DNA of 64,000 nt from Candidatus Latescibacterota bacterium (GCA_965248435.1 OZ252100.1:3968001-4032000), one strand, 5' to 3'. Counted from the first letter of the stretch, positions 8,663 through 35,767 are shown. Notes: generated by a model not told the origin, from the letters alone. Numbers and translations are program-made.

Positions 8663-9984
8663 GGTTCTTCGTCAAATGTTGGGGTAGAAAATAGACGAGA
8701 CAACGGCATCCGACCTATCTTCAGAGTATCCTCTATAAACCTGAAGGTAGAAAGGAGAGCGCGTTGTCTCAGGTGCAAAGTATATCCTTACTGGGTAGGT
8801 GGCAAGGGTTTGTGGTAGTTGGCATTCAACGTCAGGAAGCAGACGTTGTTGGAGTCGAGTTACGTCCCAAGACAGGCCGCCTTCCTCGGTGTGGTGGTTG
8901 CGGGAAGAAGGCGTACCGGGTTCATGATTGGGCAGTGCGATTTGCTCAGGATTTGCCGATCTGGGGGTCTCGAACCAGGCTGATCGTGCACTCCCGGCGC
9001 GTCCTATGTCCCCGATGTGGCTGCCGGACGGAGCAGATTGACTGGCTGGATCGGTATTCACGGGTCACTCAACGCCTGGCTGAAAGTGTTGTTCGATTGT
9101 GCGAAGTCCTGCCCATCCAGCACGTGGCACAGCACTATGGGATGAGCTGGAATACCGTGAAGCGCATTCACAAGACCCATCTCCAGCAAGAGCTGGAACC
9201 GCCGGATTTTGCCAGGGTCACGGTGATCGGCATGGACGAATTTGCGATCCAAAAGGGCCATCGCTACGCCACAGTGATTGTTGACATGGAGACCAAGCGT
9301 GTCCTATGGGTGGGTCGCGGCCGAAGTCGAGAGGACATCCGCCCGTTTTTCCACCTCCTTGGAGAAGAAGGCTGCAAGCAACTTGAGGCCGTGGCGATGG
9401 ACATGAACGGTGCCTACGAAGAGGAGGTGCGATCCCATTGTCCGGATGTGGACATCATCTATGACCTGTATCACGTTAAAGCCAAGTACAACCGCGACGT
9501 CGTCGAGCGAGTACGCATCGACGAACTGGGTCGGGTGCGCGGTGGCCGACCCGATCGCAAAGTGACTCAGAACCAACGGTGGTTGCTCCTGCGCAGCAAA
9601 GCAAATGTCACGAGCAAAGAAGACAGAGTGTCGCTAAGAGAATTGCTTTCTGCAAACAAACGCCTCTACACGGTATACCTCCTCAAAGAGGATCTCAATC
9701 ATCTCTGGTCTTATCGATCCAGAGCTGCGGCCAACAGATTCTGGAATCAGTGGTATCGACGCGCCATCTACAGCAAGATCGAGCCACTCAAGAAATTCGC
9801 ACGCAATCTGAAGACGTATATGCCAGGAATCCTAGCTCACTGTGACTATCCCATCGGGACAAGCCTGATTGAGGGAATTAACAACAAAATCAAGGTCATC
9901 AAGCGGATGGCATATGGCTTCAGGGATGATAATTATTTCTTTCTTAGAATCCGCCACGCCTTCCCCGGAAATCGGTGATGAACC
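8663..9984 (+). mobile_element. ISL3-family insertion sequence (1322 bp)
   Basis: Ends GGTTCTTCGTCAAATGTTGGGG and CCCCGGAAATCGGTGATGAACC form an imperfect IR. 8-bp TSD TTGTTAAA at 8655-8662 and 9985-9992. Confidence 0.93.
8764..9978 (+). CDS. ISL3 family transposase
   Basis: Zinc finger CxxC...CPRC; IGMDEF, AMDM and YDLYHV; EGINNKIKVIKRMAYGFRD motif typical of ISL3. Confidence 0.93.
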   Translation: MSQVQSISLLGRWQGFVVVGIQRQEADVVGVELRPKTGRLPRCGGCGKKAYRVHDWAVRFAQDLPIWGSRTRLIVHSRRVLCPRCGCRTEQIDWLDRYSRVTQRLAESVVRLCEVLPIQHVAQHYGMSWNTVKRIHKTHLQQELEPPDFARVTVIGMDEFAIQKGHRYATVIVDMETKRVLWVGRGRSREDIRPFFHLLGEEGCKQLEAVAMDMNGAYEEEVRSHCPDVDIIYDLYHVKAKYNRDVVERVRIDELGRVRGGRPDRKVTQNQRWLLLRSKANVTSKEDRVSLRELLSANKRLYTVYLLKEDLNHLWSYRSRAAANRFWNQWYRRAIYSKIEPLKKFARNLKTYMPGILAHCDYPIGTSLIEGINNKIKVIKRMAYGFRDDNYFFLRIRHAFPGNR

Positions 9985-21670: not shown

Positions 21671-21728
21671 CCAAAAAAGGCAAATGGTGTTGACATTGAG
21701 AGAAATCCCCCCTGCCCCCCTTTGTAAA

Positions 21729-22238
21729 GGTTCTTCGCCGAATGTTGGGGTTAGGCCATCAAGCTCTATTTGTAGAACTCGCCAGCTAGCCAGCGTCCCT
21801 GTAACTCAGGAGATGCATAGCTCAAAGCCATCAGGGCCGCGGTGTGCGACTTACCGTGCAACAAGGGGATTTCACCTCCCGGCGGGTTGGTTTTCAGTGA
21901 TCGCGAGCGTGTGGTGAGGATGTGGCCCACCTGCCATGATTGTTTTTTCCACTGAGGGTAAGGTGCCGCGGCCCGAGCCCCCCCGGCGTTTGAGGGGCGC
22001 CTTTCTTTTGCCTACTTTTCTTGTGGCGTGACAAGAAAAGTAGGCCGCCGGAGGCATGGTCTTATTTCTGGTTCTCGCGATACAACCCACCCCGCCCCTT
22101 CGGGGCACCCCTCCCAGGAGGGGACGGATTGTGCAGCCCCGGAGACATCGTCATTGCAGAGCGGAGCAAACGGCTTTGGAGTCAGAGAACATCGTCTCGA
22201 GATACGCCACGCCTTCCCCCGGAAATCGGTGATGAACC
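21729..22238 (+). mobile_element. Non-autonomous ISL3-derived element (510 bp) with structured non-coding cargo
   Basis: Left end GGTTCTTCGCCGAATGTTGGGGT. Right end CGCCACGCCTTCCCCCGGAAATCGGTGATGAACC is almost identical to the ISL3 end at ~9952-9984. No transposase ORF. Confidence 0.85.
21770..22059 (+). ncRNA. Candidate structured RNA inside the ISL3-ended element (copy 1)
   Basis: Nested stems conserved with 31204-31505; 15-bp hairpin at 22010-22045. Expression is not shown. Confidence 0.5.
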
Positions 22239-22406
22239 TTTACAAAGGGGGAGGTTGCTCTTTCTGAAAGAATACCTATCCATGAATAGATTCTTCACCC
22301 TTTGGAAAGGGGGATTGAGGGGGATTTCAAAACGCATCGAATCCTTTTTCCACGACACACCACAGCCCTAAATATTTTCGCCACAGTACGTTAGGAGAAA
22401 CGAATC

Positions 22407-23621
22407 GTGTCTGAGCTGGATGGTCTGCTTCAAACCGCTGAATTCGAACAGAATCCTTATCCTGTCTATCACGAGCTTCGTGAAAGGGACCCTGTCTACT
22501 GGAGCGATCTCTGGGGCTGCTGGGTGCTCACGCGGTATGACGACGTCGTCTCCACGATGCAGGACCACAAGCGTTTTTCGAGCAAGGGTCGATTCACCCG
22601 GGTGATCGAAGGTGAGCTGCCGGAGCCGGTGCTCGAGAAGATCGCGCCGCTCATCCGTCACTATTCCACCGGGCTGATCAACGTGGATCCGCCAGATCAC
22701 ACCCGCATGAGGGCACTCGTGCACAAGGCCTTTTCCCCCCGCGTACTCGAGCGTCTGCGGTCCCACATCCAGGAGATCACGGACGAGCTGTTGGACGAGG
22801 TGCAACCAAGGGGCGAGATGGAGGTGATCCGGGAGTTCGCTTACCCGCTTCCCGTCATCGTGATCGCCGAGCTGATGGGGGTGCCGCAGGAGGACCGAGA
22901 CAGGCTGAAGGGATGGTCTGGGAGGATCATCGAATTCATGGCTACGCCCCGTCCAACGGCTGAGGTAATGCTGCGATCTCAGGAAGCCCTGCTCGAATTG
23001 AGGGAGTATTTCCGCGGTATCTACGACCAGCGCCGAAAGGAGCCTCGCGAGGACCTGATCGGCAATCTCGTAGAAGTGGAAGAGGCGGGCGACAAGCTGA
23101 CGGAAGAAGAGCTGCTGTCCACCTGTGTCACGATCTTGATCGGCGGCCACGAGACGACAACAAACCTGATCTCGAGCGGGCTGTATGCCCTGCTGCAGCA
23201 CCAGGACGCGCTCCTTAAGCTGAAGCGCGATCCGTCGCTGATCGAAACGGCCGTGGAGGAGTTCCTCAGATACGAGGGCCCCTTCCAGCGAAACCGGCGT
23301 GTGGTGATGGAAGATCTGGAACTACGCGGAAGACAGATCCAGAAGGGTCAGCTCGTGTTCCAGCTCGTCGGCGCGGCGAATCGGGACCCGGAAGAGTTTC
23401 CGGATCCCGATCGGTTGGACATCGAGCGCAAGCCGAACCGCCACGTCGCGTTCGGATACGGGGTCCACTTCTGTCTGGGGGCGGCGCTGTCACGGATCGA
23501 GGCCCCGATCGCGATCAACACGATCCTCAATCGCATGCCTGATCTGAAACTCGCGACGGATGCCGTGACCTGGAACAATGCTGTGTTCAGGGGGTTAGAG
23601 GCGCTGCCTGTGGCCTTTTGA
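22407..23621 (+). CDS. Cytochrome P450
   Basis: DPPDHTRMR, GGHETT (I-helix), EEFLRY (ExxR), FGYGVHFCLG heme-ligand loop. Confidence 0.95.
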   Translation: MSELDGLLQTAEFEQNPYPVYHELRERDPVYWSDLWGCWVLTRYDDVVSTMQDHKRFSSKGRFTRVIEGELPEPVLEKIAPLIRHYSTGLINVDPPDHTRMRALVHKAFSPRVLERLRSHIQEITDELLDEVQPRGEMEVIREFAYPLPVIVIAELMGVPQEDRDRLKGWSGRIIEFMATPRPTAEVMLRSQEALLELREYFRGIYDQRRKEPREDLIGNLVEVEEAGDKLTEEELLSTCVTILIGGHETTTNLISSGLYALLQHQDALLKLKRDPSLIETAVEEFLRYEGPFQRNRRVVMEDLELRGRQIQKGQLVFQLVGAANRDPEEFPDPDRLDIERKPNRHVAFGYGVHFCLGAALSRIEAPIAINTILNRMPDLKLATDAVTWNNAVFRGLEALPVAF

Positions 23622-23624
23622 AAG

Positions 23625-23814
23625 GGCCCTCACCCTGCCTCGCGGAGTTTATCCCGAGCCTGTCGAGGGGCTCGGCATCCCTCTCCCATAAATGGGAGAG
23701 GGAAGAAGCATGCTGCGTAACCCTCTCCCCTCTCCCACGTGTGGGTGAGAGTACATACTGATGAAACAGTTATGCGAGCACTGAAACGAGGGAGCGGGGC
23801 CGGGGGTGAGGGCC
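23625..23814. repeat. Palindromic repeat GGCCCTCACCC...CCCTCTCCC-n-GGGAGAGGG...GGGTGAGGGCC
   Basis: Same family as 33692-33763 and 35770-35875; carries extra nested sequence. Confidence 0.8.
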
Positions 23815-23906
23815 TTCAGCAATACCCAATATCTAATAATCAAAGAAGAGGTTACCGTGACACTAGCCGTGAAGAGATGTCAGTTTTCATCACAAGGAGG
23901 ATAACA

Positions 23907-24662
23907 ATGAGCACAGAACCGATCAAACAGGACACAGACGGGAACGGGATTCCAACCTACACGCTGTTTCCTCCGGCGGAAGATCGGCCGAAATATTCTA
24001 CTGAGGTGGAATCGGAGGCGGAGTTTCTGGGAGAAATCCGCGAGCCGCAGGTCTTCGAGACGGAGCACCACGTCTACACGGTTCCGTTCCGATACCGGAA
24101 CGTGAAGGTGGAAAACTTCCTGACACGAGGCGGCGGGAAGGGGATCGAACTGGCCGCGGAGATGGGGGCGATTACGATAGAGGAGGAGAAGCCGATCGTC
24201 TCAGTAACGGTCGTCGGATCGGGATGCTCCGGGAAGAACTACAACATCGTGGAGTGGTGGGGACCCGGAGAGGACATCAATAATTTGCGCAAGCTCCAGA
24301 AACTGGTGAAGAGACAGCGCGTGGACAACATGAACGGGCAACACAATGCCTGGATCCAGACGGCGCTGACCGAGGAGCCGCCTGAGTTCGAGACCGCAGA
24401 GGAGGGCAGAGATTACATCAAGAAGATCCAGAAGATCTTCTACAACATGACGAGCGGCTACAGCGTGCCAGGCAGCGTGATGAGCGGACTGTATGAGAAC
24501 ACGGCCTATTTCAGGATCGGGGACACGTCGCGTCCCGAGAATACGGTCACTCGGGTCGTCATCCGTGGAGGAGGCCTGGACTACGAAGATCCGGGCGGCA
24601 AGATCGCGCGATATCCCGCGGACTACACGTTCAGGCTGATCGATCTTGTTGTCAGAAAATAG
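23907..24662 (+). CDS. Hypothetical protein (251 aa)
   Basis: AAGGAGG RBS before ATG 23907, acidic soluble composition, followed by a terminator. No family recognised. Confidence 0.7.
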   Translation: MSTEPIKQDTDGNGIPTYTLFPPAEDRPKYSTEVESEAEFLGEIREPQVFETEHHVYTVPFRYRNVKVENFLTRGGGKGIELAAEMGAITIEEEKPIVSVTVVGSGCSGKNYNIVEWWGPGEDINNLRKLQKLVKRQRVDNMNGQHNAWIQTALTEEPPEFETAEEGRDYIKKIQKIFYNMTSGYSVPGSVMSGLYENTAYFRIGDTSRPENTVTRVVIRGGGLDYEDPGGKIARYPADYTFRLIDLVVRK

Positions 24663-24697
24663 GAGAGAATCGCTCCTAAAGTAAGACAGAGGGGAAA

Positions 24698-24747
24698 AGA
24701 AATCGCCGGGAGAGGCTGACGCAAACCTCCCGGCGATTTTCTTTTTT
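24698..24747 (+). terminator. Rho-independent terminator
   Basis: AAATCGCCGGGAG...CTCCCGGCGATTT stem followed by TCTTTTTT. Confidence 0.8.
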
Positions 24748-24917
24748 CGCCAACTGTAGATCGAGGATATATTACCTTGCTTCGCACCACAGACACACTC
24801 CGACCTTGTGTGTGATCCCCACCCTGTTGGTCAGCGGAGAGAGTTTCACAACTTGATACTAAACAGCAACTTATATCTTTATCTCTCAGCCCGCCAACTC
24901 TGAGTTTGGGAGAAAAA

Positions 24918-26903
24918 GTGGCATCCAACATCCCTGAAGCGATCCGGCCCAAAACGGAGGTCGCAACTGACCATCCTCCAGAGCGAGTGACACCGCGTGC
25001 GTTCGTTTTGGGGCTCGTGACGATCGTTGCGATGTGCATCTTCTCGGAGAACTATGGGAGAGGCCTAGTAAGAAGCTTCATGCCGATGCCGGCGCTGCTG
25101 ATGTTCATGGTGTGGATCGCGATCAACCTGGTGCTCAAGAGCGCCTACCCGCGCGTCGCGCTGTCCCGCACTGAAGTGCTGACGATCTTCGGCATGGCGT
25201 GGCTGGTCGGCACGCTCCCGGGCCTTGGCCTGGTCGGCTATCTGATGCGCAATGTCGCGGGTCCGGCTTACTACTCGACCCCTGAAGACCGGTTCTGGGA
25301 GGTCGTGGGGTTTTACGTCCCAAGGTTCCTATTGTTCGAACAGGATAACCCGGCCGTAAGGCCCTACTATCTCGGGCTGCGTGCGGGCGAGGTGATTGCC
25401 TGGGAAGCGTGGTTCGTCCGGCTTTACTGGTGGTTCGTGGGGATCTTGAGTGTGGTGATGGCCGGATTCTTCGCAAGCGTGATCTTTTACAGACAGTGGG
25501 CGGACAAAGAGCGACTCGTCTTTCCTCTGGCGACCTTTCCGGTGGAGTTGCTGCAGGAATCAGAGGCGAGTCGATTACCCGACTTTGTCAGGAATCCGGT
25601 CTTTTGGCTCGGGTTTGCCACGACGTTCGGGCTCCTCGCGTGGAACGTGGCGGGTTGGTTCGTTCTCACTTTGCCCCGGATCAGCCTCTATGACCATTAT
25701 ATCTTCAAGAATGTCTTGATTGCCCGGGATTTCCCTCCGTTGAACGTTCGCTTCCACGCCTTCATCATTGGCCTGGCCTATCACTGTCCTCTGAACATCC
25801 TGTTCAACATCTGGTTTTTCTACCTCTTGAATATTTTAAAAGAAGGGATCATGAACAGGACCGGGTTCTCTGTCGGTCTGGAAGGCCAACCCGCCGACCC
25901 AAGAGACATCTTGACGCTGGAGAGCCACGGGGCCCTGGTGGTGCTGGTGCTCTGGTCTGTGTGGGTCGCAAGAGGTCATCTGAAAGAGACGTTTCAAAAG
26001 GCTTTTCTAAGTCGCCGTCACGAGGATGATGGGGCCCCGGTCTCTTATCGAACGGCTTACCTGGGTTTCCTCGGGGCCGCGATCTTTCTACTGGGCTGGC
26101 TGATGGCGGTTGGCTTCAGTCTGCCCGTAGCCCTCCTCCAGATGTCCCTGTTGTTTATCATCTACTTCGCAATGGCGAAGTATGCCGCAGCAACGGGGTT
26201 CATCTTCCTCCGGGTCCCCGGGAGTAAGGGCACGTTGATCCTGAAGTCCATCCTCGGGACGGAGAACTTCTCGTCATCCAACCTGGTGGGTTTTGTGATC
26301 GTGGAGCGAAATTCGTTCGCCGGGGCGACGGCCCGGATGCTGGCGATTCCAGGGATTTGCCACGTGTTTCGAATGCTGGGTAACGCACTCCGACGGCATC
26401 CGCTGATTTCGCTTGCACTTCCTGCCGCGCTGATCACTGGCTACACCGCCCAGTGCTGGACGCACCTCTACAACAGCCACACGGAAGGCGGGATGAACGT
26501 CGCCTTCAGCGGGGCCGGAGCCGCCATGCTGGGCCTGGTACCACAGATAGAGGGGAGCGATCGGACGGTCTTCGATACGGAGAAGCTGATCGTCTGGGGG
26601 GTCGGGGTTGCTGAGGCCGCCCTGTTCATATTGTTGGGAACGCGATTTTCCAGCTGGCCGATTCATCCGGTGGGGTTGGCTTTTCCAACCCGCTACGGGT
26701 TCAGCGTGTTCCTGACCTGGCTGCCGAAGTTCATCATCCTCCGGTTCGGCGGGGTGGCCATGTATCGAAAATCTGTTCCCTTCTTTTATGGCCTCATCGT
26801 CGGGTATATCATGGCCGTTTGGTTCTATGCAATCGTCGACATCATCTTCTTTCCCTTCGTACGCGGATACGGGACCGCTCACGGCCTGCCACATCACTGG
26901 TAA
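24918..26903 (+). CDS. DUF6785/DUF6784-type membrane protein, array copy 1
   Basis: ~660 aa polytopic protein; RQWADKERLVFPL, WPIHPVG, RFGGV..YRK motifs. GTG start after GGGAG. Confidence 0.78.
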   Translation: MASNIPEAIRPKTEVATDHPPERVTPRAFVLGLVTIVAMCIFSENYGRGLVRSFMPMPALLMFMVWIAINLVLKSAYPRVALSRTEVLTIFGMAWLVGTLPGLGLVGYLMRNVAGPAYYSTPEDRFWEVVGFYVPRFLLFEQDNPAVRPYYLGLRAGEVIAWEAWFVRLYWWFVGILSVVMAGFFASVIFYRQWADKERLVFPLATFPVELLQESEASRLPDFVRNPVFWLGFATTFGLLAWNVAGWFVLTLPRISLYDHYIFKNVLIARDFPPLNVRFHAFIIGLAYHCPLNILFNIWFFYLLNILKEGIMNRTGFSVGLEGQPADPRDILTLESHGALVVLVLWSVWVARGHLKETFQKAFLSRRHEDDGAPVSYRTAYLGFLGAAIFLLGWLMAVGFSLPVALLQMSLLFIIYFAMAKYAAATGFIFLRVPGSKGTLILKSILGTENFSSSNLVGFVIVERNSFAGATARMLAIPGICHVFRMLGNALRRHPLISLALPAALITGYTAQCWTHLYNSHTEGGMNVAFSGAGAAMLGLVPQIEGSDRTVFDTEKLIVWGVGVAEAALFILLGTRFSSWPIHPVGLAFPTRYGFSVFLTWLPKFIILRFGGVAMYRKSVPFFYGLIVGYIMAVWFYAIVDIIFFPFVRGYGTAHGLPHHW

Positions 26904-26907
26904 AAGG

Positions 26908-27035
26908 CCGGGTACCGGGTACCGTAAAACACAGAATTCTAAAAGTCATGATTTTTGTTGGTTTTCGAACCCCGGTACCCTGTACCCGGTACCCGGATTT
27001 CAAGGGGTAAATTGGAATCGAGCATTGCACATAGG
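26908..27035. repeat. Intergenic element with inverted (CGGGTAC)n / (GTACCCG)n heptamer arms
   Basis: Near-identical to 29021-29147. Partial copies near 31678-31738, 37878-37906, 18100 and 43424. Confidence 0.8.
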
Positions 27036-28994
27036 GAGATGCATCCCGAGACGGACACCGTTCCAGGGCGACCTCGGGAGCGGGTGACAGGCCGGGCCTT
27101 CGTGCTCGGCCTGATCACGATTGTGGCCATGTGTCTCTTAAGCGAGAACTATGGTAGGGGCCTGATCAGAAGCAATATGCCCGTTCCGGCGCTGCTCATG
27201 TTTACGCTTTGGTTCGGGATCTACATTCTGCTCAAGTTGACTCTTCCACGGCTGGCACTGTCCCAAACCGAGCTTTTGACCATTTTCGGGATGGCCTGGC
27301 TCGTCGGGACGCTGCCGGGCCTCGGTGTGGTGGGCTACTTGATGTTCGAGGTCACGGCTCCGGCCTATTTCTCGACGCCCGAGGACCGGTTCTGGGAGGT
27401 GGTGGGGCTCTATCTACCCAGATTCCTTTTGTTCGATCAGGGTAACCCGGCCGTGGCGACCTACTACCTCGGACTTCGCCCGGGAGAGGCGATTGTCTGG
27501 AGCGAGTGGTTTTTTCGGCTCTACTGGTGGTTTGTCGGGCTCTCGAGTCTGGCGCTGGCGGGGTTTTTTGCCAGTGTCGTCTTCTACAGGCAGTGGGCGG
27601 ATAAGGAGCGGCTCGTGTTTCCGCTGGCGACCTTTCCGGTCGAGCTCCTTAAGGAATCCGCGGGGAATCGACTGCCTGATGTGCTCAGAAACCTGGTGTT
27701 CTGGGCGGGGTTTGCTTTTACGTTCGGGATTCTCGCGTGGAATGTGGCGAGGTACTTCATCCTTGACCTACCCCGAATCACCTTGTTCGATCATGAGACC
27801 TTTAAGAACATCACTCTCGCTCGAGACTTTCCGCCCCTCAATGTGCGCGTTCACCCATTTATCATCGGACTGGCCTATCATGCTCCCCTAAACATCCTGT
27901 TCAACATCTGGTTTTTCTATGTTCTGAATATTTTGAAAATAGGACTGATGAATGTAACCGGATTCTCTGTCGGCCTCGAAGGCCAACCGGCAGCGCCAAG
28001 AGATATCACGACGTTGGAGAGTCACGGCGCGCTCGTAGTCCTTGTGATCTGGTCTGTGTGGATCGGAAGGGGCCATCTGAGGGAGACGTTCCAGAAGGCC
28101 TTCTTTTTCCGTCGTGCCGAAGACGACGGTGCTCCAGTGACCTACCGAACGGCCTACCTCGGTTTTGTCTGCGCTGCCATTTTTCTGTTGGGATGGCTAG
28201 TGTCGACCGGGTTCAGCCTGCCGTTTGCCCTTCTGCAAATGGCCCTGCTTTTCGTTATCTACTTCGGGACGGCAAAATATCTCGCGGCCACCGGGTTCAT
28301 CTCCCTGAGGGTTCCGGGGAACAAAGGCGCCGTGATTCTTCGGTCCATTATCGGGATTAGAAATCTCTCCCCGTCCAACCTTGTGGGCGTGAAGATGGTC
28401 GATATAAATGGCTTCGCGGGCACGACCTCCCGGATGCTGTCGATTCCCGGGATCCCGCACCTTTTTCGTATGCTCGGGACGGCTTTGAAGCGGCATCCCC
28501 TGATTTCACTCGCGCTGCCTGCGGCACTCATCACCGGTTTCACCGCCCAGTGTTGGGCACATCTAGACCTCAGCCACAGGGAAGGCGGCATGAATGTCGC
28601 CTTCACCGGGATGCGAATGCTGGACCTGGTCTCTCAAATCGGCGGGAGCGGCCAGTCTACCTTCGATGTCCAGAAGCTGCTCGTCTGGATCGTGGGGGCG
28701 GCTGAAGCCTGTCTGTTCACCTTCCTTGGGACGAGGTTCACAGGATGGCCGATTCATCCCGTGGGCCTGGCCTTCCCCACCTACTACGGATTCAGCGTTT
28801 TCCTCGTCTGGCTGCCCAAGATCATCATCCTTAGACTCGGCGGGGTGCTGCTCTATCGCAGGTCGGTTCCCTTCTTTTATGGGATGATCGTCGGGTACCT
28901 AGTGGGTATCTTGTACGCGGCCGCTGTGGATATCATTTTCTTTCCCTCCGTCCGCGGATATGGGACCTTCCACGGCTTGCCTCACCATGACTAA
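27012..28994 (+). CDS. DUF6785/DUF6784-type membrane protein, array copy 2
   Basis: Paralog. TTG start inferred from the MESS N-terminus of copies 4-6 and a GGGGT RBS. Confidence 0.78.
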   Translation: MESSIAHREMHPETDTVPGRPRERVTGRAFVLGLITIVAMCLLSENYGRGLIRSNMPVPALLMFTLWFGIYILLKLTLPRLALSQTELLTIFGMAWLVGTLPGLGVVGYLMFEVTAPAYFSTPEDRFWEVVGLYLPRFLLFDQGNPAVATYYLGLRPGEAIVWSEWFFRLYWWFVGLSSLALAGFFASVVFYRQWADKERLVFPLATFPVELLKESAGNRLPDVLRNLVFWAGFAFTFGILAWNVARYFILDLPRITLFDHETFKNITLARDFPPLNVRVHPFIIGLAYHAPLNILFNIWFFYVLNILKIGLMNVTGFSVGLEGQPAAPRDITTLESHGALVVLVIWSVWIGRGHLRETFQKAFFFRRAEDDGAPVTYRTAYLGFVCAAIFLLGWLVSTGFSLPFALLQMALLFVIYFGTAKYLAATGFISLRVPGNKGAVILRSIIGIRNLSPSNLVGVKMVDINGFAGTTSRMLSIPGIPHLFRMLGTALKRHPLISLALPAALITGFTAQCWAHLDLSHREGGMNVAFTGMRMLDLVSQIGGSGQSTFDVQKLLVWIVGAAEACLFTFLGTRFTGWPIHPVGLAFPTYYGFSVFLVWLPKIIILRLGGVLLYRRSVPFFYGMIVGYLVGILYAAAVDIIFFPSVRGYGTFHGLPHHD

Positions 28995-29020
28995 CGAGCG
29001 CGTACCGGGAAACCAAAACA

Positions 29021-29147
29021 CGGGTACCGGGTACCGTAAAAGACAGAATTTTAAGAGTCAGGATTTTTGTTGGTTTTCGAACCCCGGTACCCTGTACCCG
29101 GTACCCGGATTTCAAGGGGTAAATTGGAATCGAGCATTGCACATAGG
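29021..29147. repeat. Second copy of the heptamer-armed intergenic element and leader
   Basis: Direct repeat of 26908-27035. Confidence 0.8.
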
Positions 29148-31027
29148 GTGATGCAACCCGAGCCGGTCGCCGATCCAGGGCGACCTCCCGAGCGCGTGAC
29201 GCCACGTGCGTTCGTCCTGGGGCTCGTGACGATCGTCGTGATGTGCATCTTCTCGGAGCACTACGGGAGGGGCCTTGTCAGGAGCTTCATGCCGATGCCG
29301 GCTCTGCTGATGTTCATGGTGTGGATCGCGATCAATCTGGTGCTCAAGAGCGCATATCCGCGCGTGGCGCTGTCTCGTACAGAGATCCTTATGATCTTTG
29401 GCATGACCTGGCTGGTCGGAACGCTCCCGGGTCTTGGTCTGGTCGGCTACCTGATGCATTACGTCACGGGTCCGGCCTATTTCTCCACGCCCGAAGACCG
29501 CTTCTGGGAGGTCGTGGGGCTCTACGTCCCGGAATTTCTCCTGTTCGAGCAGGGTAGCCCGGTCGTGGGGCCCTACTATCTCGGACTGCGCGTAGGTGAG
29601 GTAATTTCCTGGGAAGCGTGGTTCGTTCGCCTCTACTGGTGGTTCGTGGGGATCTTGAGCGTGGTGATGGCAGGATTCTTTGCAAGCGTGATCTTTTACA
29701 GGCAATGGGCGGACAAAGAGCGGCTTGTCTTCCCTCTGGCGACTTTTCCTGTGGAGCTGCTTCAGGAATCAGAGGAGAGTCGGCTGCCGGGCTTCGTCAG
29801 GAATCCCATCTTCTGGATCGGGTTTGCGACGACGTTTGGGCTCCTCGCCTGGAACGTGGCGGGCTGGTTCATTCTCGATTTGCCCCGGATGTCACTCTAC
29901 GATCATCGTGACTTCAAGTATATCCTGATTGCCCGTGATTTCCCTCCCCTGAACGTTCGCGTACACCCCTTTATCATTGGCCTGGCTTATCACTGTCCGT
30001 TGAACATCCTTTTCAACATCTGGTTCTTCTATCTCTTGAGTATTCTCAAACAAGGGATCATGAACCGGACCGGGGTCTCTGTCGGGGTGGAAGGCCAACC
30101 CGCCGACCCGAGAGACATCCTGACACTGGAGAGCCACGGGGCCCTGGTGGTGCTGGTGCTCTGGTCCGTGTGGGTCGCGAGAGGTCACCTGAAAGAGACG
30201 TTTCAAAAGGCCTTCCTGAGTCGCCGTCACGAGGATGATGGGGCTCCGGTATCCTACCGAACGGCCTACCTCGGTTTCCTCGGGGCCGCGATTTTTCTCC
30301 TGGGCTGGCTGATGACGGTCGGCTTCAGCCTGCCCGTGGCCCTTCTGCAGATGTCCCTGTTGTTCATCATCTACTTCGGGATGGCGAAGTACGCGGCAGC
30401 AACGGGGTTCATCTTCCTCCGGGTCCCGGGAGGAAAGGGCACGTTGATCCTGAAGTCAATCCTCGGGACGGAGAAATTCTCGCCATCCAACCTGGTGGGT
30501 TTGGTGGTCGTGGAGCAAAACGCGTTTGTAGGTTCCACGGCGCGGATGCTGGCGATTCCCGGGATCTCCCACGTCTTTCGAATGCTGGGTAGTGCCCTGC
30601 GTCGGCATCCACTGATCTGGCTTGCCCTGCCTGCCGCTCTCATCACGGGCTACACCACCCAGTGCTGGACACACCTCTACAACAGCCACACGGAAGGCGG
30701 GATGAACGTCGCCTTCAGCGGGATCCCGGGGGCCATGCTGGGCCTGGTCTCAGATATCGAGGGGACCGACCCCACGGTCTTCGACGTCGAGAAGCTGACC
30801 GTCTGGGGGGTCGGAGTCACGGAGGCCGCCCTGTTCATACCTGGCTGCCGAAGATTATCATCCTCCGATTCGGCGGGGTGGCCCTGTATCGAAAGTCTGT
30901 TCCTTTCTTTTACGGCCTTATCGTCGGATATATCATGGCCGTCTGGTTTTATGCCACCGTCGACATCATGTTCTTTCCTTACGTGCGCGGATACGGGACC
31001 GCTCACGGCCTGCCTCATCACTGGTAG
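29124..31027 (+). pseudogene. DUF6785/DUF6784-type membrane protein, array copy 3 (frameshifted)
   Basis: Relative to copy 1, ~85 bp are missing at 30839/30840 (equivalent to 26631-26715), removing WPIHPVG. The true C-terminus (TWLPK...GLPHHW) is in another frame ending at 31027. Confidence 0.8.
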
Positions 31028-31161
31028 AAAGCCGTCGTTCGTCGGTAATCAATTTCTGATCATTATCGGGAAATCCCCCTCAGTCCCCCTTTGTTAAAGG
31101 GGGAGGATTCTACTCCGGAGGTGAGTACTCTTTCAGCTAAGTAATGTTCCCCCTTTGGAAA

Positions 31162-31602
31162 GGTTCTTCGCCGAATGTTGGGGTTAAGGTATTAAGCTCT
31201 AATTGTAGACTCGCCCGCTTGCCGGCGTCTCTGTAACTCGCGAGATGCATCGCTCAAAGTCATCAGGGCCGCGGTGTGCGACTCCGATGCAACCTCGTTC
31301 TTTCACCTCCCACGCGGTTAGGCCCTCTGGGCCGGTCCCATAGTGGGCGTTCTGTGGGGCAGGAGTCCCGCCCTGATTGCCGCCCCCGTCCTTTCCACTG
31401 AGGGTGAGGTGCCGCGGCCCGAGCCCCCGCGGCGTTTGAGCGGCGCCCTTCTTTTGTCTACTTTTCTTGTGGCGAGACAAGAAAAGTAGACCGCCGGAGG
31501 CATGGGGTTCTTGGGTGGGGCGAACAGCCTAGGGAGCAAGGAGAGATAGCCACTTTTTTCTCGAAATCTGCTCATGACCTCCCCTAAATTCGGTGAAGAG
31601 CC
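31162..31602 (+). mobile_element. Non-autonomous ISL3-derived element (441 bp) with structured non-coding cargo
   Basis: Left end GGTTCTTCGCCGAATGTTGGGGT, right end CCCCTAAATTCGGTGAAGAGCC. Perfect 8-bp TSD TTTGGAAA at 31154-31161 and 31603-31610. Confidence 0.87.
31204..31505 (+). ncRNA. Candidate structured RNA inside the ISL3-ended element (copy 2)
   Basis: Blocks and stems conserved with 21770-22059; 15-bp hairpin at 31456-31491. Confidence 0.5.
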
Positions 31603-31715
31603 TTTGGAAAAGGGGGGTAGCGGGGATTTGAATTTCGGGAAGAGCGGTGACGCCTAATTCGTTTGATGGGTGTGGCAGAACCCCGGTACCCGGTACCCGG
31701 ATTTCAAGAGGTGAA

Positions 31716-33689
31716 ATGGAATCGAGTATCGCACATATAGAGATGCAAGATCAGGCGCTTGAACCAGGTAGAGAGCGCGTGACAGGCCGTGCCTTCCTGC
31801 TCGGCTTGATCTCTATCGTGGGGATGTGCCTGTTCGCCGAGAACTACGGCAGGGGGCTGGTCCGAACATTCATGCCTGTGACGGCCCTGCTCGTGCTGGT
31901 GGCCTGGATCGGGATCAACATCCTGCTAAAATGTTCGTTCCCGCGCCTGGCGTTGTCGCGGATCGAGTTGCTGACGATCTTCGGGATGACCTGGCTGGTG
32001 GGGACGCTGCCAGGAATCGGTATGATCGGCAGTATGTTCTCGTCGATCGCAAGCCCGGCCTATTTTTCCACCCAGGAAGACCGGTTCTGGGAGGTCGCGG
32101 GTCCTTACTTTCCTATGCATTTGTTTTTCGAGCAGGGGAGTCCGGTCATCGAACAGTACTACCTTGGGCTGAGGCCAGGAGAGGCGATGCCCTGGCAGCC
32201 GTGGGTCGGGCGGATTTTCTGGTGGTTTACCGCTACAGCGGCTATGGTGATGGCGGGGTTCTTCGCCAGTGTGTTGTTCTACAGGCAGTGGTCCGAAAAG
32301 GAACGATTGAACTTTCCTCTGTCCACCTTCCCGACAGAACTACTCCAGGAGTCCGAAGGCAGTCGGGTTCCGGACGCCTTCAAAAAGCCGATCTTCTGGG
32401 TGGGATTTGCGTGCACAGCCGGGGTGATCTTCTGGAACATCGCGGGATACTTCATCCTCACGCTGCCGGCGATCACGCTCTACTACCATCCCATGTTCAA
32501 GAACATCGATCTCGGTCGGTACTTCCCTCCTTTCAATGTGAGGGTGCATCCGCTGTATATGGGCCTGGCCTACCATTGTCCGCTCAACATCCTGTTCAGT
32601 TTCTGGGTCTTTTATGTATTGAGGATCTTCAAGACTGGAATGATGAACCGAATTGGATTTACCGTCGGTCTTGCGGGACAGACGGCCGAACCCAGAGAGA
32701 TTCTGATGCTGGAGGCCCACGGTGCAATGGTCTTCCTGGTGGCCTGGTCACTCTGGGTGGCCCGGAACCACCTGAAGGAGACCTTCCGAAAGGCCTTTCG
32801 AGAGACCCACAGAGATGACGGCCTGCCGGTCAGATACCGCATCGCCTGGCTCGGATTTCTGTGGTCGACGTTGTTCTTGACCGGCTGGTTAATTGCCGCG
32901 GGCTTCAGCCTGCACGTTGCGCTCCTTCAACTCGCCCTCTACTTTGTCATGTATTTGGGGATGGCCAAGTATACAGCCGCGAGCGGGTTTGTTTTCCTGC
33001 AGGTTCGGGGTCGAACGGGCGGACCGATTCTGAAGTCGATTCTGGGGACCCGGGGGTTTTCGCCCCGCAACCTCGTAGGAATCTTGATCGGGGATTTTAG
33101 CGGGCTTGCGGGGGGCTATTCCAGGCCGCTCGCGGTCCCGGCAATCGTTCACTTTTTCCGACTGATCGGAAACGCCTTTCGGCGAGTTCCGCTGGTCTGG
33201 GGTGCGTTGCCCGCAGCCCTGCTTGTGGGCTACATTGCCCAAAGCTGGGCGCACATGGATCTCAACTATGCCGAGGGAGCCATGAATACCGGGTTCGGAG
33301 GTGTCGGACGTCACCTGCGTGGGCTCGTATCCGACATCGAGGCGACCAGTCCGTCCGTCTTCGATCCCCAGCGGCTGGGGGTCTGGATGATTGGAGGGGT
33401 AGAGGCAGGTCTGTTGAGCCTCCTCGGGTCCCGATTTACCGGGTGGCCGCTCCACCCGATCGCGCTGGCCTTTCCCACCGGCTACGGATTCAGCATATTC
33501 TTGATCTGGCTGCCCAAGTACCTCATCCTCAGGTTCGGCGGCGTGTCCCTGTATCGCCGCTCCGTACCGTTCTGGTATGGCGTTGTTGTCGGCTATCTGG
33601 TCGGGCTGATGGTTTCGACCGCGGTGGATGTCATCTGGTTTCCGACCTTGCGGGGCTACGGGACGATGCACATGCTGCATTCGAAGTAA
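31716..33689 (+). CDS. DUF6785/DUF6784-type membrane protein, array copy 4
   Basis: Paralog; GAGGTG RBS, ATG at 31716. Confidence 0.8.
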   Translation: MESSIAHIEMQDQALEPGRERVTGRAFLLGLISIVGMCLFAENYGRGLVRTFMPVTALLVLVAWIGINILLKCSFPRLALSRIELLTIFGMTWLVGTLPGIGMIGSMFSSIASPAYFSTQEDRFWEVAGPYFPMHLFFEQGSPVIEQYYLGLRPGEAMPWQPWVGRIFWWFTATAAMVMAGFFASVLFYRQWSEKERLNFPLSTFPTELLQESEGSRVPDAFKKPIFWVGFACTAGVIFWNIAGYFILTLPAITLYYHPMFKNIDLGRYFPPFNVRVHPLYMGLAYHCPLNILFSFWVFYVLRIFKTGMMNRIGFTVGLAGQTAEPREILMLEAHGAMVFLVAWSLWVARNHLKETFRKAFRETHRDDGLPVRYRIAWLGFLWSTLFLTGWLIAAGFSLHVALLQLALYFVMYLGMAKYTAASGFVFLQVRGRTGGPILKSILGTRGFSPRNLVGILIGDFSGLAGGYSRPLAVPAIVHFFRLIGNAFRRVPLVWGALPAALLVGYIAQSWAHMDLNYAEGAMNTGFGGVGRHLRGLVSDIEATSPSVFDPQRLGVWMIGGVEAGLLSLLGSRFTGWPLHPIALAFPTGYGFSIFLIWLPKYLILRFGGVSLYRRSVPFWYGVVVGYLVGLMVSTAVDVIWFPTLRGYGTMHMLHSK

Positions 33690-33691
33690 AT

Positions 33692-33763
33692 GGCCCTCAC
33701 CCTGCCTCGCTTCCGCTCGGCATCCCTCTCCCATAAATGGGAGAGGGGCCGGGGGTGAGGGCC
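33692..33763. repeat. Palindromic CCCTCTCCC-n-GGGAGAGGG repeat
   Basis: GGCCCTCACCC...GGGTGAGGGCC inverted arms. Confidence 0.8.
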
Positions 33764-33781
33764 TGTCTTCAGTGAGGTAAT

Positions 33782-35767
33782 GTGGAATCCAGCGTCGCAT
33801 ATAAACGGATAGATGCCGAGACGGGGATCGACGCAGCGCGTCCGCCTGAACGTCTGACCGTGCGCGCTTTCGTGCTCGGCCTGATCACGATCGCGGCCAT
33901 GTGCGTGTTCGCTGAGAATTACGGTCGAGGGTTGGTCAGGACGTTCATGCCGGTCACGGCTCTGCTCGCGCTGATGCTCTGGAGCGGAATCAACATCCTT
34001 CTGAGGCTGACGGTCCCCCGCCTGGCCCTGTCGCGCCTCGAGGTGATGACGATCTTCGGTCTGACCTGGCTGATCGGCGCGATTCCAGGTATCGGCATGG
34101 TCGGCTACATGTTCTGGGACATAGCGGGCCCGGCCTCCTTTTCCTCTCCCGAAGACCGGTTCTGGGAGGTCGCAGGACCCTACTTCCCGGATTTCCTCTA
34201 CCTCCAGCCGGGAAGTCGGGCCGCGGAGCAGTATATGCTGGGCCTGATGGCGGGAGAGTCCATCGTTTGGTTGGAATGGCTCAGGCCGCTGTTCTGGTGG
34301 TTTGCGGGAACGGCGGGGCTGATCTTTGCCGGCTTCTTTGCAAGCGTCCTGTTCTACCGGCAGTGGGCGGAGCGGGAGCGCCTCACGTTCCCCCTGGCGA
34401 CGTTTCCTCTGGACCTTATGCGAGAGTCGGGCAGCAGCCCGATTCCCGAGGCCTTCAAGAAACCGGTATTCTGGCTCGGATTCGCCTGCACCTTTGGCGT
34501 GATTGGTTGGAACATCGTGGGCTACTTCGTCCTGACACTGCCCGAGATCACACTGTATTACCATCCGATGTTCAAGAACATCGACCTCGGGCCCCACTTC
34601 CCGTCCTTTAACGTGAGGGTGCATCCGCTCTACATGGGGTTGGCGTATCACTGTCCGCTGAACATTCTTTTTAGTTTCTGGGTCTTCTACTGTCTGAACA
34701 TCCTGAAGATGGGGCTGATGAACCGGACGGGTTTCGTCGTCGGACTGGAGGGACAGCCTGCGACGCCCGGGGTCGCGATGGCTCTGGAGGCGCACGGTGC
34801 GATGGTCTTCCTGGTGGTCTGGTCGATCTGGGTCGCCCGGCGTCACATTAAGGAGACCCTGCAAAAGGCGTTCTCCGGACCCCGTTCGTATGACGACGGG
34901 CTGCCGGTGACCTACAGGACGGCCTGGATCGGATTTTTCGTGTGTACGATCTTCCTGATGGGCTGGTTCAGGTCGGTCGGCTTCGGCGTGGGCGCGACGC
35001 TGCTTCAGCTTTCGCTCCTATTTGTCGCCTACTTCGCCGTTTCAAAGTATGCCGCCGCGACAGGGTTCGTGTCTCTGGTCCCTCCGGGCCGAAAAGGCTG
35101 GCTGATCATGAAATCGATCGTGGGAACAGTGAACTTTTCGCCGAGGGACCTGACCGGCATACAGGTCGTTCACGGCTGGGGATTCAACGGGGGGACCAAC
35201 CGGATGGTTGCGATTCCGGCCATTGCACACTTCTTCCGATTGATCGGAGACGCCTTACGACGCCATCCCCTGGTGGTCGGGGCGCTGCCTGCCGCGCTGG
35301 TGACTGGGTACGTGGTACAGTGCTGGGCGCACCTGGATCTCAACCATACGGAGGGCGGGTTGAACATAGGCTGGCCGGGGTTCAGCGGGAGGTTGAGAAC
35401 CCTCGTTGCGGACATCGAAGCGACAAATCCGTCGGTGTTCGACCCGAAAAAATTGGCTGTCTGGATCCTCGGAGCCGCAGAGGCAGGTTTTCTGATGTTC
35501 CTCGGAAGTCGGTTCATGTCCTGGCCGATTCACCCGGTCGGGCTGGCCTTCCCACACGGGTACGGTTTCAGCATGATGATCCTCTGGCTGTTCAAGACCA
35601 TCATACTCAGGCTGGGCGGCGTGAGCCTGTACGAGCGCTCGAAACCGTTCTGGTACGGTGTCATCATCGGATATCTGTTTGGACTTGCGATCTCCACGGT
35701 CGTGGATGTCATCTGGTTTCCGACCTTGCGGGGCTACGGGACGATGCACATGGTTCATTCGAAGTAA
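33782..35767 (+). CDS. DUF6785/DUF6784-type membrane protein, array copy 5
   Basis: Paralog; GAGGT RBS, GTG start. Confidence 0.8.
   Translation: MESSVAYKRIDAETGIDAARPPERLTVRAFVLGLITIAAMCVFAENYGRGLVRTFMPVTALLALMLWSGINILLRLTVPRLALSRLEVMTIFGLTWLIGAIPGIGMVGYMFWDIAGPASFSSPEDRFWEVAGPYFPDFLYLQPGSRAAEQYMLGLMAGESIVWLEWLRPLFWWFAGTAGLIFAGFFASVLFYRQWAERERLTFPLATFPLDLMRESGSSPIPEAFKKPVFWLGFACTFGVIGWNIVGYFVLTLPEITLYYHPMFKNIDLGPHFPSFNVRVHPLYMGLAYHCPLNILFSFWVFYCLNILKMGLMNRTGFVVGLEGQPATPGVAMALEAHGAMVFLVVWSIWVARRHIKETLQKAFSGPRSYDDGLPVTYRTAWIGFFVCTIFLMGWFRSVGFGVGATLLQLSLLFVAYFAVSKYAAATGFVSLVPPGRKGWLIMKSIVGTVNFSPRDLTGIQVVHGWGFNGGTNRMVAIPAIAHFFRLIGDALRRHPLVVGALPAALVTGYVVQCWAHLDLNHTEGGLNIGWPGFSGRLRTLVADIEATNPSVFDPKKLAVWILGAAEAGFLMFLGSRFMSWPIHPVGLAFPHGYGFSMMILWLFKTIILRLGGVSLYERSKPFWYGVIIGYLFGLAISTVVDVIWFPTLRGYGTMHMVHSK

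What the first reader, a model, noticed from the sequence alone, without database searches (positions are those of the whole stretch)
21729..31602. Two transposase-less ISL3-ended elements carry the same multi-stem structured sequence: candidate undescribed mobile RNA
Seen: 21729-22238 and 31162-31602 both start GGTTCTTCGCCGAATGTTGGGGTTA and end in ISL3-type right ends. Their interiors do not resemble the transposase gene at 8764-9978 but share ordered blocks that pair in a nested way. (i) GGGCCGCGGTGT/GTGCCGCGGCCC (21834-45 with 21963-74; 31266-77 with 31409-20) needs three G-U pairs, which favours a + strand RNA. (ii) CTCAAA/TTTGAG. (iii) TCACCTC/GAGGGT. (iv) A 15-bp hairpin with a compensatory C-G to T-A change (GCCTACTTTTCTTGT..ACAAGAAAAGTAGGC at 22010-45 versus GTCTAC...GTAGAC at 31456-91). 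The loop GGCGAG in copy 2 is complementary to a conserved upstream CTCGCC, a possible pseudoknot. Established: non-autonomous IS derivatives exist, and RNA components are known for IS200/605 and IS110; I know of none for ISL3. Inference: a structured RNA uses ISL3 ends for mobility or acts in its targeting or regulation.
Basis: partly seen in the sequence, partly recalled or inferred. Interest (0 to 1): 0.9.

Follow-up and report, generated by a model that had tools for sequence, protein, structure and literature searches.

The report
ISL3 mini-transposons carrying a clade-wide structured repeat
The two elements are transposase-less ISL3 mini-transposons whose cargo is one copy of a folded, non-coding repeat that occurs in tens of copies per genome across three related bacterial families and matches no catalogued RNA family, so it is a good candidate for an undescribed RNA, although its transcription and function are still unproven.

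Summary
Window 21729-22238 and 31162-31602 are non-autonomous ISL3 elements (MITEs). They have ISL3-type ends and no transposase. A 1322-bp ISL3 partner lies at 8663-9984, one of 10 near-identical copies in the genome. Copy 2 has a perfect 8-bp target duplication.

The interior is not specific to ISL3. It belongs to a repeat family with 101 nhmmer hits (about 70 sites) in this genome, most of them lacking the IS left end. In the sister genome the same core sits inside a MITE with different terminal repeats. In other genera I found no terminal inverted repeats.

A covariance model of the 3' domain hits 51 of 132 genomes of the class (three families yes, the fourth 0 of 76).

Structure is partly supported:
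- The long hairpin is 98.5% paired, with double-sided changes in 9 of 13 pairs.
- A 4-bp helix has a GC/CG swap (76 versus 26).
- The long-range stem changes sequence between lineages but stays complementary.
- G-U pairs and a GC hairpin followed by a U-tract point to the + strand.

There is no Rfam match. Transcription was not shown, so function remains inferred.

The parts
8663..9984 (+). Autonomous ISL3 insertion sequence (1322 bp). Transposase ORF 8764-9978. 8-bp target duplication TTGTTAAA at 8655-8662 and 9985-9992.
   Evidence: Read. Pfam DDE_Tnp_ISL3 / HTH_Tnp_ISL3 / Zn_ribbon_ISL3. 10 full-length copies at 99.8-100% identity in the genome.
21729..22238 (+). MITE copy 1 (510 bp): ISL3-type left end, structured core, a small unrelated repeat module, and the last 37 nt of the IS as right end. 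Flanks are TTTGTAAA and TTTACAAA, not a direct repeat.
   Evidence: Two sister copies in the genome at 94-97% identity, one of them with a perfect 8-bp duplication.
21834..21974 (+). Copy 1: domain closed by the long-range stem P1 (21834-21845 with 21963-21974). The interior varies in length across the family.
   Evidence: 12 pairs, 96.3% of cells paired, none with a double change within this genome. Lineage-specific complementary P1 sequences.
21985..22009 (+). Copy 1: GC-rich hairpin 'a' (21985-22001) followed by the U-tract TTTCTTTT. It is intrinsic-terminator-like on the + strand only. The alternative 4-bp helix 'b' pairs 21981-21984 with 21994-21997.
   Evidence: Terminator-like site. Hairpin a 97.5% paired with UG/CG alternation. 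Helix b 99.3% paired with GC:76 / CG:26.
22010..22045 (+). Copy 1: 15-bp A/U-rich hairpin with loop GGCGTG.
22085..22124 (+). Small independent repeat module (ACCCACCCCGCCCC..GGAGGGGA) nested in copy 1. It also flanks many copies that lack IS ends.
   Evidence: A relative's contig has this module but not the MITE at the orthologous site.
31162..31602 (+). MITE copy 2 (441 bp) with inverted terminal repeats and a perfect 8-bp target duplication TTTGGAAA (31154-31161 and 31603-31610).
   Evidence: Sister copies at 88-97% identity.
31266..31420 (+). Copy 2: P1-closed domain (31266-31277 with 31409-31420), the medium-length variant of the variable interior.
31431..31455 (+). Copy 2: hairpin 'a' (31431-31447) plus the U-tract CTTCTTTT.
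31456..31491 (+). Copy 2: 15-bp hairpin with loop GGCGAG. Its base pair is T-A where copy 1 has C-G.
21700..21728 (.). Left half of the G/C-clamped palindrome (CCCCC TTTGTAAA GGGGG type) whose A/T-rich loop is the insertion target. The right half lies at 22239-22252. The same arrangement is seen at 31148-31161 / 31603-31617 and 8650-8662 / 9985-9997.
   Evidence: Most listed flanks of the IS and MITE copies are of this type.

Best explanation
Both elements are miniature, transposase-less ISL3 transposons (MITEs). The ISL3 transposase encoded by 10 near-identical full-length copies (one at window 8663-9984) presumably moves them in trans. They insert into the A/T-rich loop of CCCCC...GGGGG palindromes.

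Their interior is not decayed IS sequence. It is one copy of an older, clade-wide, non-coding repeat of about 190-310 nt with a fixed architecture:
- a long-range stem P1 closing a variable-length domain;
- a short GC hairpin followed by a U-tract, which can alternatively form a 4-bp helix with the sequence just upstream;
- a 13-15-bp A/U-rich hairpin.

I infer that this core works as a + strand RNA: a small structured transcript with an intrinsic-terminator-like 3' module. The ISL3 ends are one of at least two kinds of transposon ends that have captured it and multiply it.

Shown: MITE anatomy, family size, phylogenetic spread, conserved pairing, and absence from orthologous sites in the sister genome.

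Inferred: that it is transcribed, that the + strand is the active one, and what the RNA does.
For: MITE status:
- Ends and 8-bp duplications. 5 complete MITEs have perfect 8-bp duplications and 1 matches 7 of 8, out of about 13 complete elements listed.
- ISL3 partner.
- Orthologous intergenic regions in same-genus G001 are 164 nt versus 716 nt and 294 nt versus 648 nt, and hold no copy.

The core is independent of ISL3:
- 101 nhmmer hits, of which 32 start at the IS left end.
- G001 carries the core inside a MITE with terminal repeats CCTGAATAATTCATAAA.
- Copies in genus g3 show no terminal inverted repeats that I could find.

Spread:
- Model R1 hits 51 of 132 genomes of the class: f1 20/21, f2 27/31, f3 3/3, f4 0/76.

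Structure:
- Long hairpin: 13 pairs, 9 with changes on both sides, 98.5% paired. 173 double-change cells against 36.8 +/- 4.6 in shuffles (0 of 500 shuffles reach it).
- Helix b: GC:76 / CG:26 / GU:1 / other:1, 99.3% paired overall.
- P1 differs in sequence in five lineages but stays complementary.

Strand:
- The three U-G/G-U pairs of P1 are kept in 29-30 of 30 own copies, and two of them are C-G/G-C in G001.
- Hairpin a alternates U-G and C-G.
- Hairpin a plus the U-tract scores as terminator-like on the + strand in both copies.
- One g6 variant replaces hairpin a with a different GC stem followed by U7.

Non-coding and intergenic.
Against: - Transcription is not shown. In the one RNA library laid (X11, contigs only), depth on the core relative to the flanks (312 versus about 11) is no higher than in the runs whose kind is not on record and that I took to be DNA (about 61x, 124x, 40x).
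- No conserved promoter was found upstream of P1 (reading).
- Single-sequence folding does not favour the + strand: z = -2.34 (+) versus -3.51 (-).
- The best-supported helix, the long hairpin, contains no G-U pairs. It would fold equally well as DNA or on either strand, and it lies downstream of the terminator-like site.
- Covariation was counted on paralogues and on an alignment fitted to the model, so events are not independent.
- The inner structure of the P1 domain could not be resolved.
Confidence: 0.6

Rival explanations
1. Selfish or structural DNA repeat with no RNA function (REP/REPIN-, ERIC-, BOX- or Correia-like). The hairpins matter as DNA, for example as cruciform or single-strand substrates for a host or transposon enzyme, or simply as insertion targets. 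The family persists by hitch-hiking and recombination.
For: - The most strongly covarying helix is a G-U-free palindrome.
- Other small repeats insert into its arms.
- Copies are intergenic, lie in both orientations relative to their neighbours, and are commoner between convergent than divergent genes: 13 versus 7 sites, 10 versus 1 outside the cluster.
- The family is modular, and only the 3' 60-85 nt is shared across the whole clade in BLAST searches.
- About 31 same-orientation copies lie in one 80-kb region.
- Transcription is not shown.
Against: - P1 and hairpin a need G-U (G-T) pairs that are mismatches on the other strand, and these are kept or turned into Watson-Crick pairs.
- The architecture of a closed variable domain followed by a GC hairpin and a U-tract is kept over three families, while P1 changes sequence five times.
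- No Y1 transposase/RAYT gene lies next to any copy.
- No integron integrase scores above cut-off.
Confidence: 0.3
2. Cis-acting regulatory leader (riboswitch- or attenuator-like): a P1-closed aptamer followed by a terminator that controls the gene downstream.
For: - P1-closed domain directly followed by a terminator-like hairpin and U-tract.
- Two mutually exclusive helices (a and b) share nucleotides, and each shows supporting variation.
Against: - No recurrent downstream gene or start codon after the element. The best downstream ORFs differ in offset and length among the 88 matches listed.
- 28 sites are co-directional with both neighbours, 22 are antiparallel to both, and 20 lie between divergent or convergent genes.
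- Both window copies are absent from the orthologous sites in G001.
- Copies occur in tandem.
Confidence: 0.05
3. Transposon-encoded partner RNA: a guide or regulator for ISL3, or an orphan omega/bridge-type RNA of IS200/605 or IS110 elements.
For: - Multi-copy, structured and associated with mobile-element ends.
- IS110-type (4) and Y1 (5) transposase genes exist in the genome.
Against: - The full-length ISL3 has only about 100 nt before its ORF and lacks the core.
- The core occurs without ISL3 ends and with other ends.
- No TnpB in the genome (0 matches, with the control ringing in 8 of 14 genomes).
- No copy lies beside an IS110 or Y1 gene.
- No HEARO or other Rfam match.
- The IscB marker search was uninformative because its control rang nowhere.
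Confidence: 0.04
4. Decayed coding sequence or degenerate IS interior.
For: Short ORFs overlap the elements on both strands.
Against: - The variable domain comes in three length classes and in unrelated sequences.
- The substitutions I read between copies 1 and 2 fall at irregular spacing, not every third base. This was judged by eye and not counted.
- There is no similarity to the transposase gene.
- A 20-codon ORF I read by eye in the short variant is absent from other lineages.
Confidence: 0.01

Closest known systems
ISL3-family MITEs (non-autonomous ISL3 derivatives)
   Same: ISL3-type terminal inverted repeats, 8-bp target duplication, no transposase, multiple copies beside intact ISL3 copies. 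Papers holding both terms 'ISL3' and 'miniature inverted-repeat' exist, for example Microcystis genome papers. I saw only the search listing and the abstract starts.
   Different: The interior is not a deletion derivative of the IS. It is a captured copy of an independent repeat found in three families.
Structured intergenic repeat families: ERIC, BOX, Correia, bcr1, REP/REPIN (named from recall, not from any call)
   Same: Tens of intergenic copies, modular build, stable hairpins, some with terminator activity, spread at genus-to-family level.
   Different: This family has a closed multi-helix domain with lineage-specific compensatory P1 sequences. It rides inside MITEs with at least two different kinds of end. 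No RAYT-like gene lies beside copies.
HEARO/omega RNA of IscB-TnpB elements and IS110 bridge RNA (named from recall)
   Same: Structured RNA of 150-300 nt encoded in mobile-element ends, often present as orphan copies.
   Different: No Rfam HEARO match, no TnpB, no adjacency to IS110 or Y1 genes. No guide-like variable end was identified.
Riboswitch / small RNA with Rho-independent terminator
   Same: P1-closed domain followed by a GC hairpin and a U-tract, with alternative pairings around the terminator.
   Different: No conserved downstream gene, multi-copy, mobile. No promoter found.

Membership tests
ISL3-derived MITE | Terminal inverted repeats like those of an ISL3 element in the same genome | tested here: met
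   The left ends share their first ~24 nt with the IS (18 of the first 20 nt read here). Copy 1's right end equals the IS right end over 37 nt at about 95% identity. Copy 2's ends are inverted repeats of each other.
ISL3-derived MITE | 8-bp direct target duplication | tested here: inconclusive
   Copy 2 has a perfect TTTGGAAA. Copy 1 has TTTGTAAA / TTTACAAA, which is not direct. In the family, 5 complete elements are perfect and 1 matches 7 of 8, out of about 13.
ISL3-derived MITE | No transposase gene inside; autonomous partner present | tested here: met
   The elements are 441 and 510 bp with no similarity to the transposase gene. There are 10 intact ISL3 copies. Pfam DDE_Tnp_ISL3 6.9e-66.
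ISL3-derived MITE | Mobilisation by the ISL3 transposase | not testable with these tools
   Indirect only: empty orthologous sites in G001 and near-identical copies elsewhere in the genome.
Any Rfam 15 family | Covariance-model match at or near the gathering score | tested here: not met
   0 hits in the window at gathering threshold. Only noise at E 1.9-4.9 on copy 1. 0 hits at E<=0.1 in 11 relatives' loci.
Structured RNA (general) | Base pairs kept through compensatory changes | tested here: met
   Long hairpin and helix b. P1 only between lineages, by reading. Caveat: the sequences are paralogues and the alignment was fitted to the model.
Structured RNA (general) | Transcribed, with defined strand and ends | tested here: inconclusive
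   Only contigs of one metatranscriptome could be laid. There was no enrichment over the runs whose kind is not on record and that I took to be DNA.
Intrinsic (Rho-independent) terminator | GC-rich stem-loop followed by a U-run on the transcribed strand | tested here: met
   Pattern scan hits at 21985-22001 and 31431-31447 on the + strand. Conserved in 99 distinct sequences. Terminator activity itself was not tested.
IS200/605 PATE / omega RNA | TnpB, IscB or TnpA partner in the genome and adjacency in some copies | tested here: not met
   TnpB domain 0 hits. Y1 genes are not next to any hairpin copy. The IscB marker search was uninformative.
Integron attC array | Integron integrase next to a same-orientation array; R''/R' core sites | tested here: not met
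   The best integrase-model score is 104 bits against a cut-off of 265. Only a 92-aa recombinase fragment lies 1.8 kb from the cluster. I saw no GTTRRRY core site by eye.
Riboswitch / leader | Conserved position upstream of a recurrent gene class | tested here: not met

The most novel reading that the evidence does not exclude
The core is a functional, previously undescribed class of structured RNA. It could be a trans-acting riboregulator, a ribozyme, or a switch that toggles between hairpin a and helix b. On this reading it is itself the selected cargo: it has been captured repeatedly by unrelated transposon ends (ISL3 in this genome, a different terminal-repeat family in the sister genome) and has spread through three families of an uncultivated phylum. 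That would make it an RNA gene that uses DNA transposons as vehicles.
Probability: 0.25. Interest if true: 0.85.

Novelty: new variant of a known kind. Interest (0 to 1): 0.62.

Why it matters
MITEs are usually treated as gutted transposons. Here the cargo is older and more widespread than the vehicle. Its fold is conserved over three families while its stem sequences turn over, and it is carried by at least two kinds of transposon ends. If it is an RNA, it would add a new multi-copy ncRNA class from a phylum known almost only from metagenomes. It would also be a clear case of a non-coding gene spreading by capture into DNA transposons. If it is only DNA, it is a new REP/ERIC-like family, and it shows that ISL3 elements home to the loops of G/C-clamped palindromes. 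Either way it should be masked or modelled in annotation of these genomes, since it breaks short-read assemblies at each copy.

Tried and rejected
- Group II intron 5' end (GTGCGAC after P1): rejected. The motif is not conserved in G001, type B, f2 or f3 copies.
- RNase P-derived element: rejected. RF00010 finds only the single rnpB gene, although 92 candidates were scored.
- My first guess that the organism was a Geobacter was wrong. Public records holding the same loci are titled Candidatus Latescibacterota, with a few titled Gemmatimonadota.
- Replication-linked (single-strand) mobility. In G000 only 15 of 70 sites lie on the leading strand (15 of 48 outside the cluster, p=0.013; 10 of 33 after thinning, p=0.035). 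In G001 the listed copies in the negative-skew half are 9 to 1 the other way. I therefore dropped this as a property of the core.
- Integron-like cassette array for the 4.956-5.038 Mb cluster. There is no integrase above cut-off, and the genes between copies are ordinary metabolic genes in both orientations.
- Downstream ORF or leader: none recurrent.
- Column-pair scans of the type B alignment to solve the inner domain were swamped by subfamily signal.
- A mixed-lineage MAFFT alignment did not bring the P1 5' strands into register. P1 covariation between lineages therefore rests on reading, not on a count.
- An outer helix joining the U-tract to GGAGG/GAAGG/AAGGG after the long hairpin is plausible (and reading) but was not counted.
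- Read laying:
  - In run X1, a joint 21723->22247 has only a 21-nt side in repeat sequence. I do not count it as an empty site.
  - The RNA run X11 gave no support for transcription, and no evidence against it either.
  - Runs X5 and X8 held small shares and say nothing about habitat.
- Viral contigs (0 hits) and plasmids (no match) for the core.
- Literature: two full-text searches listed nothing that describes this element. I saw only listings and abstract starts and read no paper. No supplements were consulted.

Full report
WHAT IS IN THE WINDOW

Window 21729-22238 (copy 1, 510 bp) and 31162-31602 (copy 2, 441 bp) both begin with GGTTCTTCGCCGAATGTTGGGGTTA. There are 2 exact matches in the window against 0.00 expected.

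A complete insertion sequence lies at 8663-9984 (1322 bp). It starts GGTTCTTCGTCAAATGTTGGGG and ends ..GGAAATCGGTGATGAACC. It is flanked by the 8-bp duplication TTGTTAAA. Its 404-aa ORF carries DDE_Tnp_ISL3 (6.9e-66), HTH_Tnp_ISL3 and Zn_ribbon_ISL3.

The genome is 5.67 Mb in 2 contigs, and the window is C1:3968001-4032000. It holds 10 full-length copies of this IS at 99.8-100% identity.

Copy 1 ends with the last 37 nt of the IS (about 95% identity). Copy 2 ends ..AAATTCGGTGAAGAGCC, an inverted repeat of its own left end, and has a perfect 8-bp duplication TTTGGAAA. Copy 1 is flanked by TTTGTAAA and TTTACAAA, which are reverse complements and not a direct repeat.

Apart from the right end of copy 1, neither element resembles the IS. 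The two copies are 80% identical over 535 alignment columns.

THE INTERIOR IS A LARGE, OLDER FAMILY

- BLAST and two rounds of nhmmer against the organism's own genome find 101 hits. These merge to 89 loci and about 70 sites.
- Only 32 of the 101 hits start at the IS left end. The others begin about 60 nt further in (CTGGCGTCTCTCAAACTC..) or later.
- All 57 copies of the A/U-rich hairpin in the genome lie inside these loci.
- Copies are intergenic. 28 sites are co-directional with both neighbours, 22 are antiparallel to both, 13 lie between convergent genes and 7 between divergent genes.
- About 31 loci, all in the same orientation, lie in C1:4.956-5.038 Mb. They separate modules of 1-5 ordinary metabolic genes that point either way.
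- The family has three length classes of a variable middle (short, +14 nt, +about 60 nt). Other small repeats are nested into the arms of the long hairpin.

OUTSIDE THIS GENOME

- A BLAST survey of 41 genomes (this one plus 40 relatives) hit 33, mostly through the 3' 60-85 nt.
Nearly all are titled Candidatus Latescibacterota MAGs. Several are identical to the unnamed relatives.
- A covariance model of the 92-position 3' domain (R1) hits 51 of 132 genomes of the class at E<=1e-6: family f1 20/21, f2 27/31, f3 3/3, f4 0/76.
- A BLAST survey of the phylum gave 24 of 168 genomes, all in those three families.
- There were no hits in viral contigs or plasmids.
- No Rfam family matches the window, copy 1, or 11 relatives' loci.

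DIFFERENT VEHICLES FOR THE SAME CORE

- In the same-genus genome G001, at least 18 copies of the long variant sit inside a different MITE. Its terminal repeats are CCTGAATAATTCATAAA / TTTATGAATTATTCAGG, and its flanks often read CTAG/CTA.
- In genus g3, similarity between copies stops about 20 nt before P1 and about 45 nt after the hairpin. I found no terminal inverted repeats there.
- Genus g2 and family f2 have their own flanking modules.
- Both window insertions are missing at the orthologous sites of G001. The flanking genes are 79-85% identical, but the intergenic regions are 164 nt versus 716 nt and 294 nt versus 648 nt. Neither holds a copy.
- A contig from a related organism (about 92% identity) also lacks the MITE at the site of copy 1.
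- So the copies are insertions, not conserved local regulators. ISL3 is one of at least two kinds of transposon end that carry the core.

STRUCTURE

- P1. It has 9 Watson-Crick plus 3 G-U pairs and is practically invariant in 30 own copies: 96.3% of cells paired and no double change. Between lineages the sequence is replaced but stays complementary:
  - this genome: GGGCCGCGG(TGT) with (GTG)CCGCGGCCC;
  - G001: GGCCGTGGCG with CGCCACGGCC. Here two of the wobble pairs become C-G/G-C, and one C-G becomes T-A;
  - type B: GGGGCTTTTCCGCG with CGCGGAAAAGC..CCCC. All 14 predicted pairs are kept in at least 48 of 50 sequences;
  - f3: GGGCGCG with CGCGCCC;
  - f2/g6: GCACAGCGC with GCGCTGTGC.
  - These comparisons are by reading. 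A mixed alignment did not put the 5' strands in register.
- Hairpin a. GGCGYY/GGCGCC is 97.5% paired in 99 distinct sequences. Two positions alternate U-G and C-G.
- Helix b. The nucleotides just upstream can instead form a 4-bp helix with part of hairpin a. It is 99.3% paired. One pair is GC in 76 sequences, CG in 26, GU in 1 and unpaired in 1. Another pair is CG in 102 and UA in 1. In g6 the first of these pairs is U-A (reading). Helices a and b exclude each other.
- Long hairpin. It has 13 modelled pairs, of which 9 show changes on both sides, and is 98.5% paired. There are 173 double-change cells against 36.8 +/- 4.6 in shuffles (0 of 500 shuffles reach it). Sliding the partner by 1-3 columns drops pairing to 51-63%.
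- Caveats. Alignment A7 was fitted to the model, and many rows are paralogues, so the counts are not independent events.
- Helices that fail:
  - Helix (iii): one pair is unpaired in 14 of 30 copies, and there is no double change.
  - Helix (ii): 160 of 198 cells are paired, but the two variable pairs break in 14 of 33 copies each, because their variation follows hairpin a instead.
  - The pseudoknot partner CTCGCC belongs to the ISL3 left-end module, which most copies lack.

WHICH STRAND, AND IS IT RNA?

For the + strand:
- the G-U pairs of P1 and hairpin a would be A-C mismatches on the other strand;
- hairpin a is followed by CTTCTTTT(T), and the pattern scan calls this terminator-like on the + strand in both copies;
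- one g6 variant replaces hairpin a with a different GC stem followed by U7.

Against, or neutral:
- folding energies do not discriminate the strands: z = -2.34 for + and -3.51 for -;
- no conserved promoter was found;
- the only RNA library that could be laid (contigs) shows no more depth on the core, relative to the flanks, than the runs I took to be DNA.

OTHER SYSTEMS CONSIDERED

- There is no TnpB.
- Y1 (5) and IS110 (4) transposase genes exist but are not next to copies.
- The IscB marker search was uninformative.
- No integron integrase scores above cut-off.
- RNase P is single-copy and unrelated.
- No recurrent downstream ORF follows the element.
- A strand bias relative to replication in this genome is reversed in G001. 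I do not use it.

CONCLUSION

The two elements are ISL3 MITEs, and their cargo is a member of a clade-wide, structurally conserved, non-coding repeat family that is absent from Rfam. My best reading (about 0.6) is that the core functions as a + strand structured RNA with a terminator-like 3' module and spreads by capture into MITEs. The main rival (about 0.3) is a purely DNA-level selfish repeat. A specific role in ISL3 transposition is unlikely.

Noticed in passing
window 8650-8662/9985-9997, 21714-21728/22239-22252, 31148-31161/31603-31617; genome-wide list: All ten full-length ISL3 copies and most MITE copies sit in the A/T-rich 8-nt loop of a G/C-clamped palindrome (CCCCC TTTGNAAA GGGGG). 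This palindrome is itself part of a REP-like repeat (AAATCCCCCTCAGTCCCCCTTT..AAAGGGGG). It suggests hairpin- or palindrome-targeted insertion by this ISL3.
   Followed up: partly
window 22085-22124; many places in G000: A ~40-nt repeat module ACCCACCCCGCCCC-TTCG-GGGCACCCCTCC-NN-GGAGGGGA (two mini-hairpins) flanks many core copies on both sides and is nested in copy 1. A related organism has it alone at the orthologous site.
   Followed up: partly
G000:C1:4956392-5037610 (outside the window): About 31 core loci, all in the same orientation, are spread over about 80 kb. They separate 1-5-gene modules of assorted metabolic genes pointing both ways. A 92-aa tyrosine-recombinase C-terminal fragment lies 1.8 kb to the left. 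The arrangement looks cassette-like, but no integrase was found.
   Followed up: partly
G001 (same genus), loci L018-L100 subset: A second MITE family carries the same core: terminal repeats CCTGAATAATTCATAAA, about 190 nt of A/T-rich leader, flanks often CTAG/CTA, and at least 18 copies. Its autonomous partner was not sought.
   Followed up: no
G000 copies at C1:1283536, 2244375, 2790481, 2791011, 4956390, 4961894, 4983581, 4991072 and others: Other small repeats (about 90 nt, about 40-60 nt, about 105 nt) are inserted at fixed points in the arms of the long hairpin or just after it. The hairpin is therefore itself an insertion target.
   Followed up: no
window 24906-37873: Six tandem paralogous ORFs of 659-680 aa (24906, 26955, 29067, 31647, 33782, 35894). 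The two I tested are DUF6785 (+DUF6784) proteins. Copy 2 lies between the third and fourth. G001 has many paralogues too.
   Followed up: partly
window 3951-5444 and 7049-8542: Two ORFs of identical length (497 aa), each with the same overlapping antisense ORF pattern. This looks like a recent duplication just upstream of the ISL3 copy.
   Followed up: no
G000:C1:1448658, 2071970, 3850047, 4651479, 4843434, 5171594: Six apparently identical 314-aa tyrosine-recombinase ORFs (equal scores), which points to another multi-copy mobile element. Two of them lie within a few kb of IS110-type transposase genes.
   Followed up: no
G000 whole chromosome: GC skew places the origin near 2.95 Mb and the terminus near 0.25 Mb. 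Core copies lie mostly on the lagging strand here (15 of 70 sites on the leading strand), but the bias is reversed in G001.
   Followed up: yes
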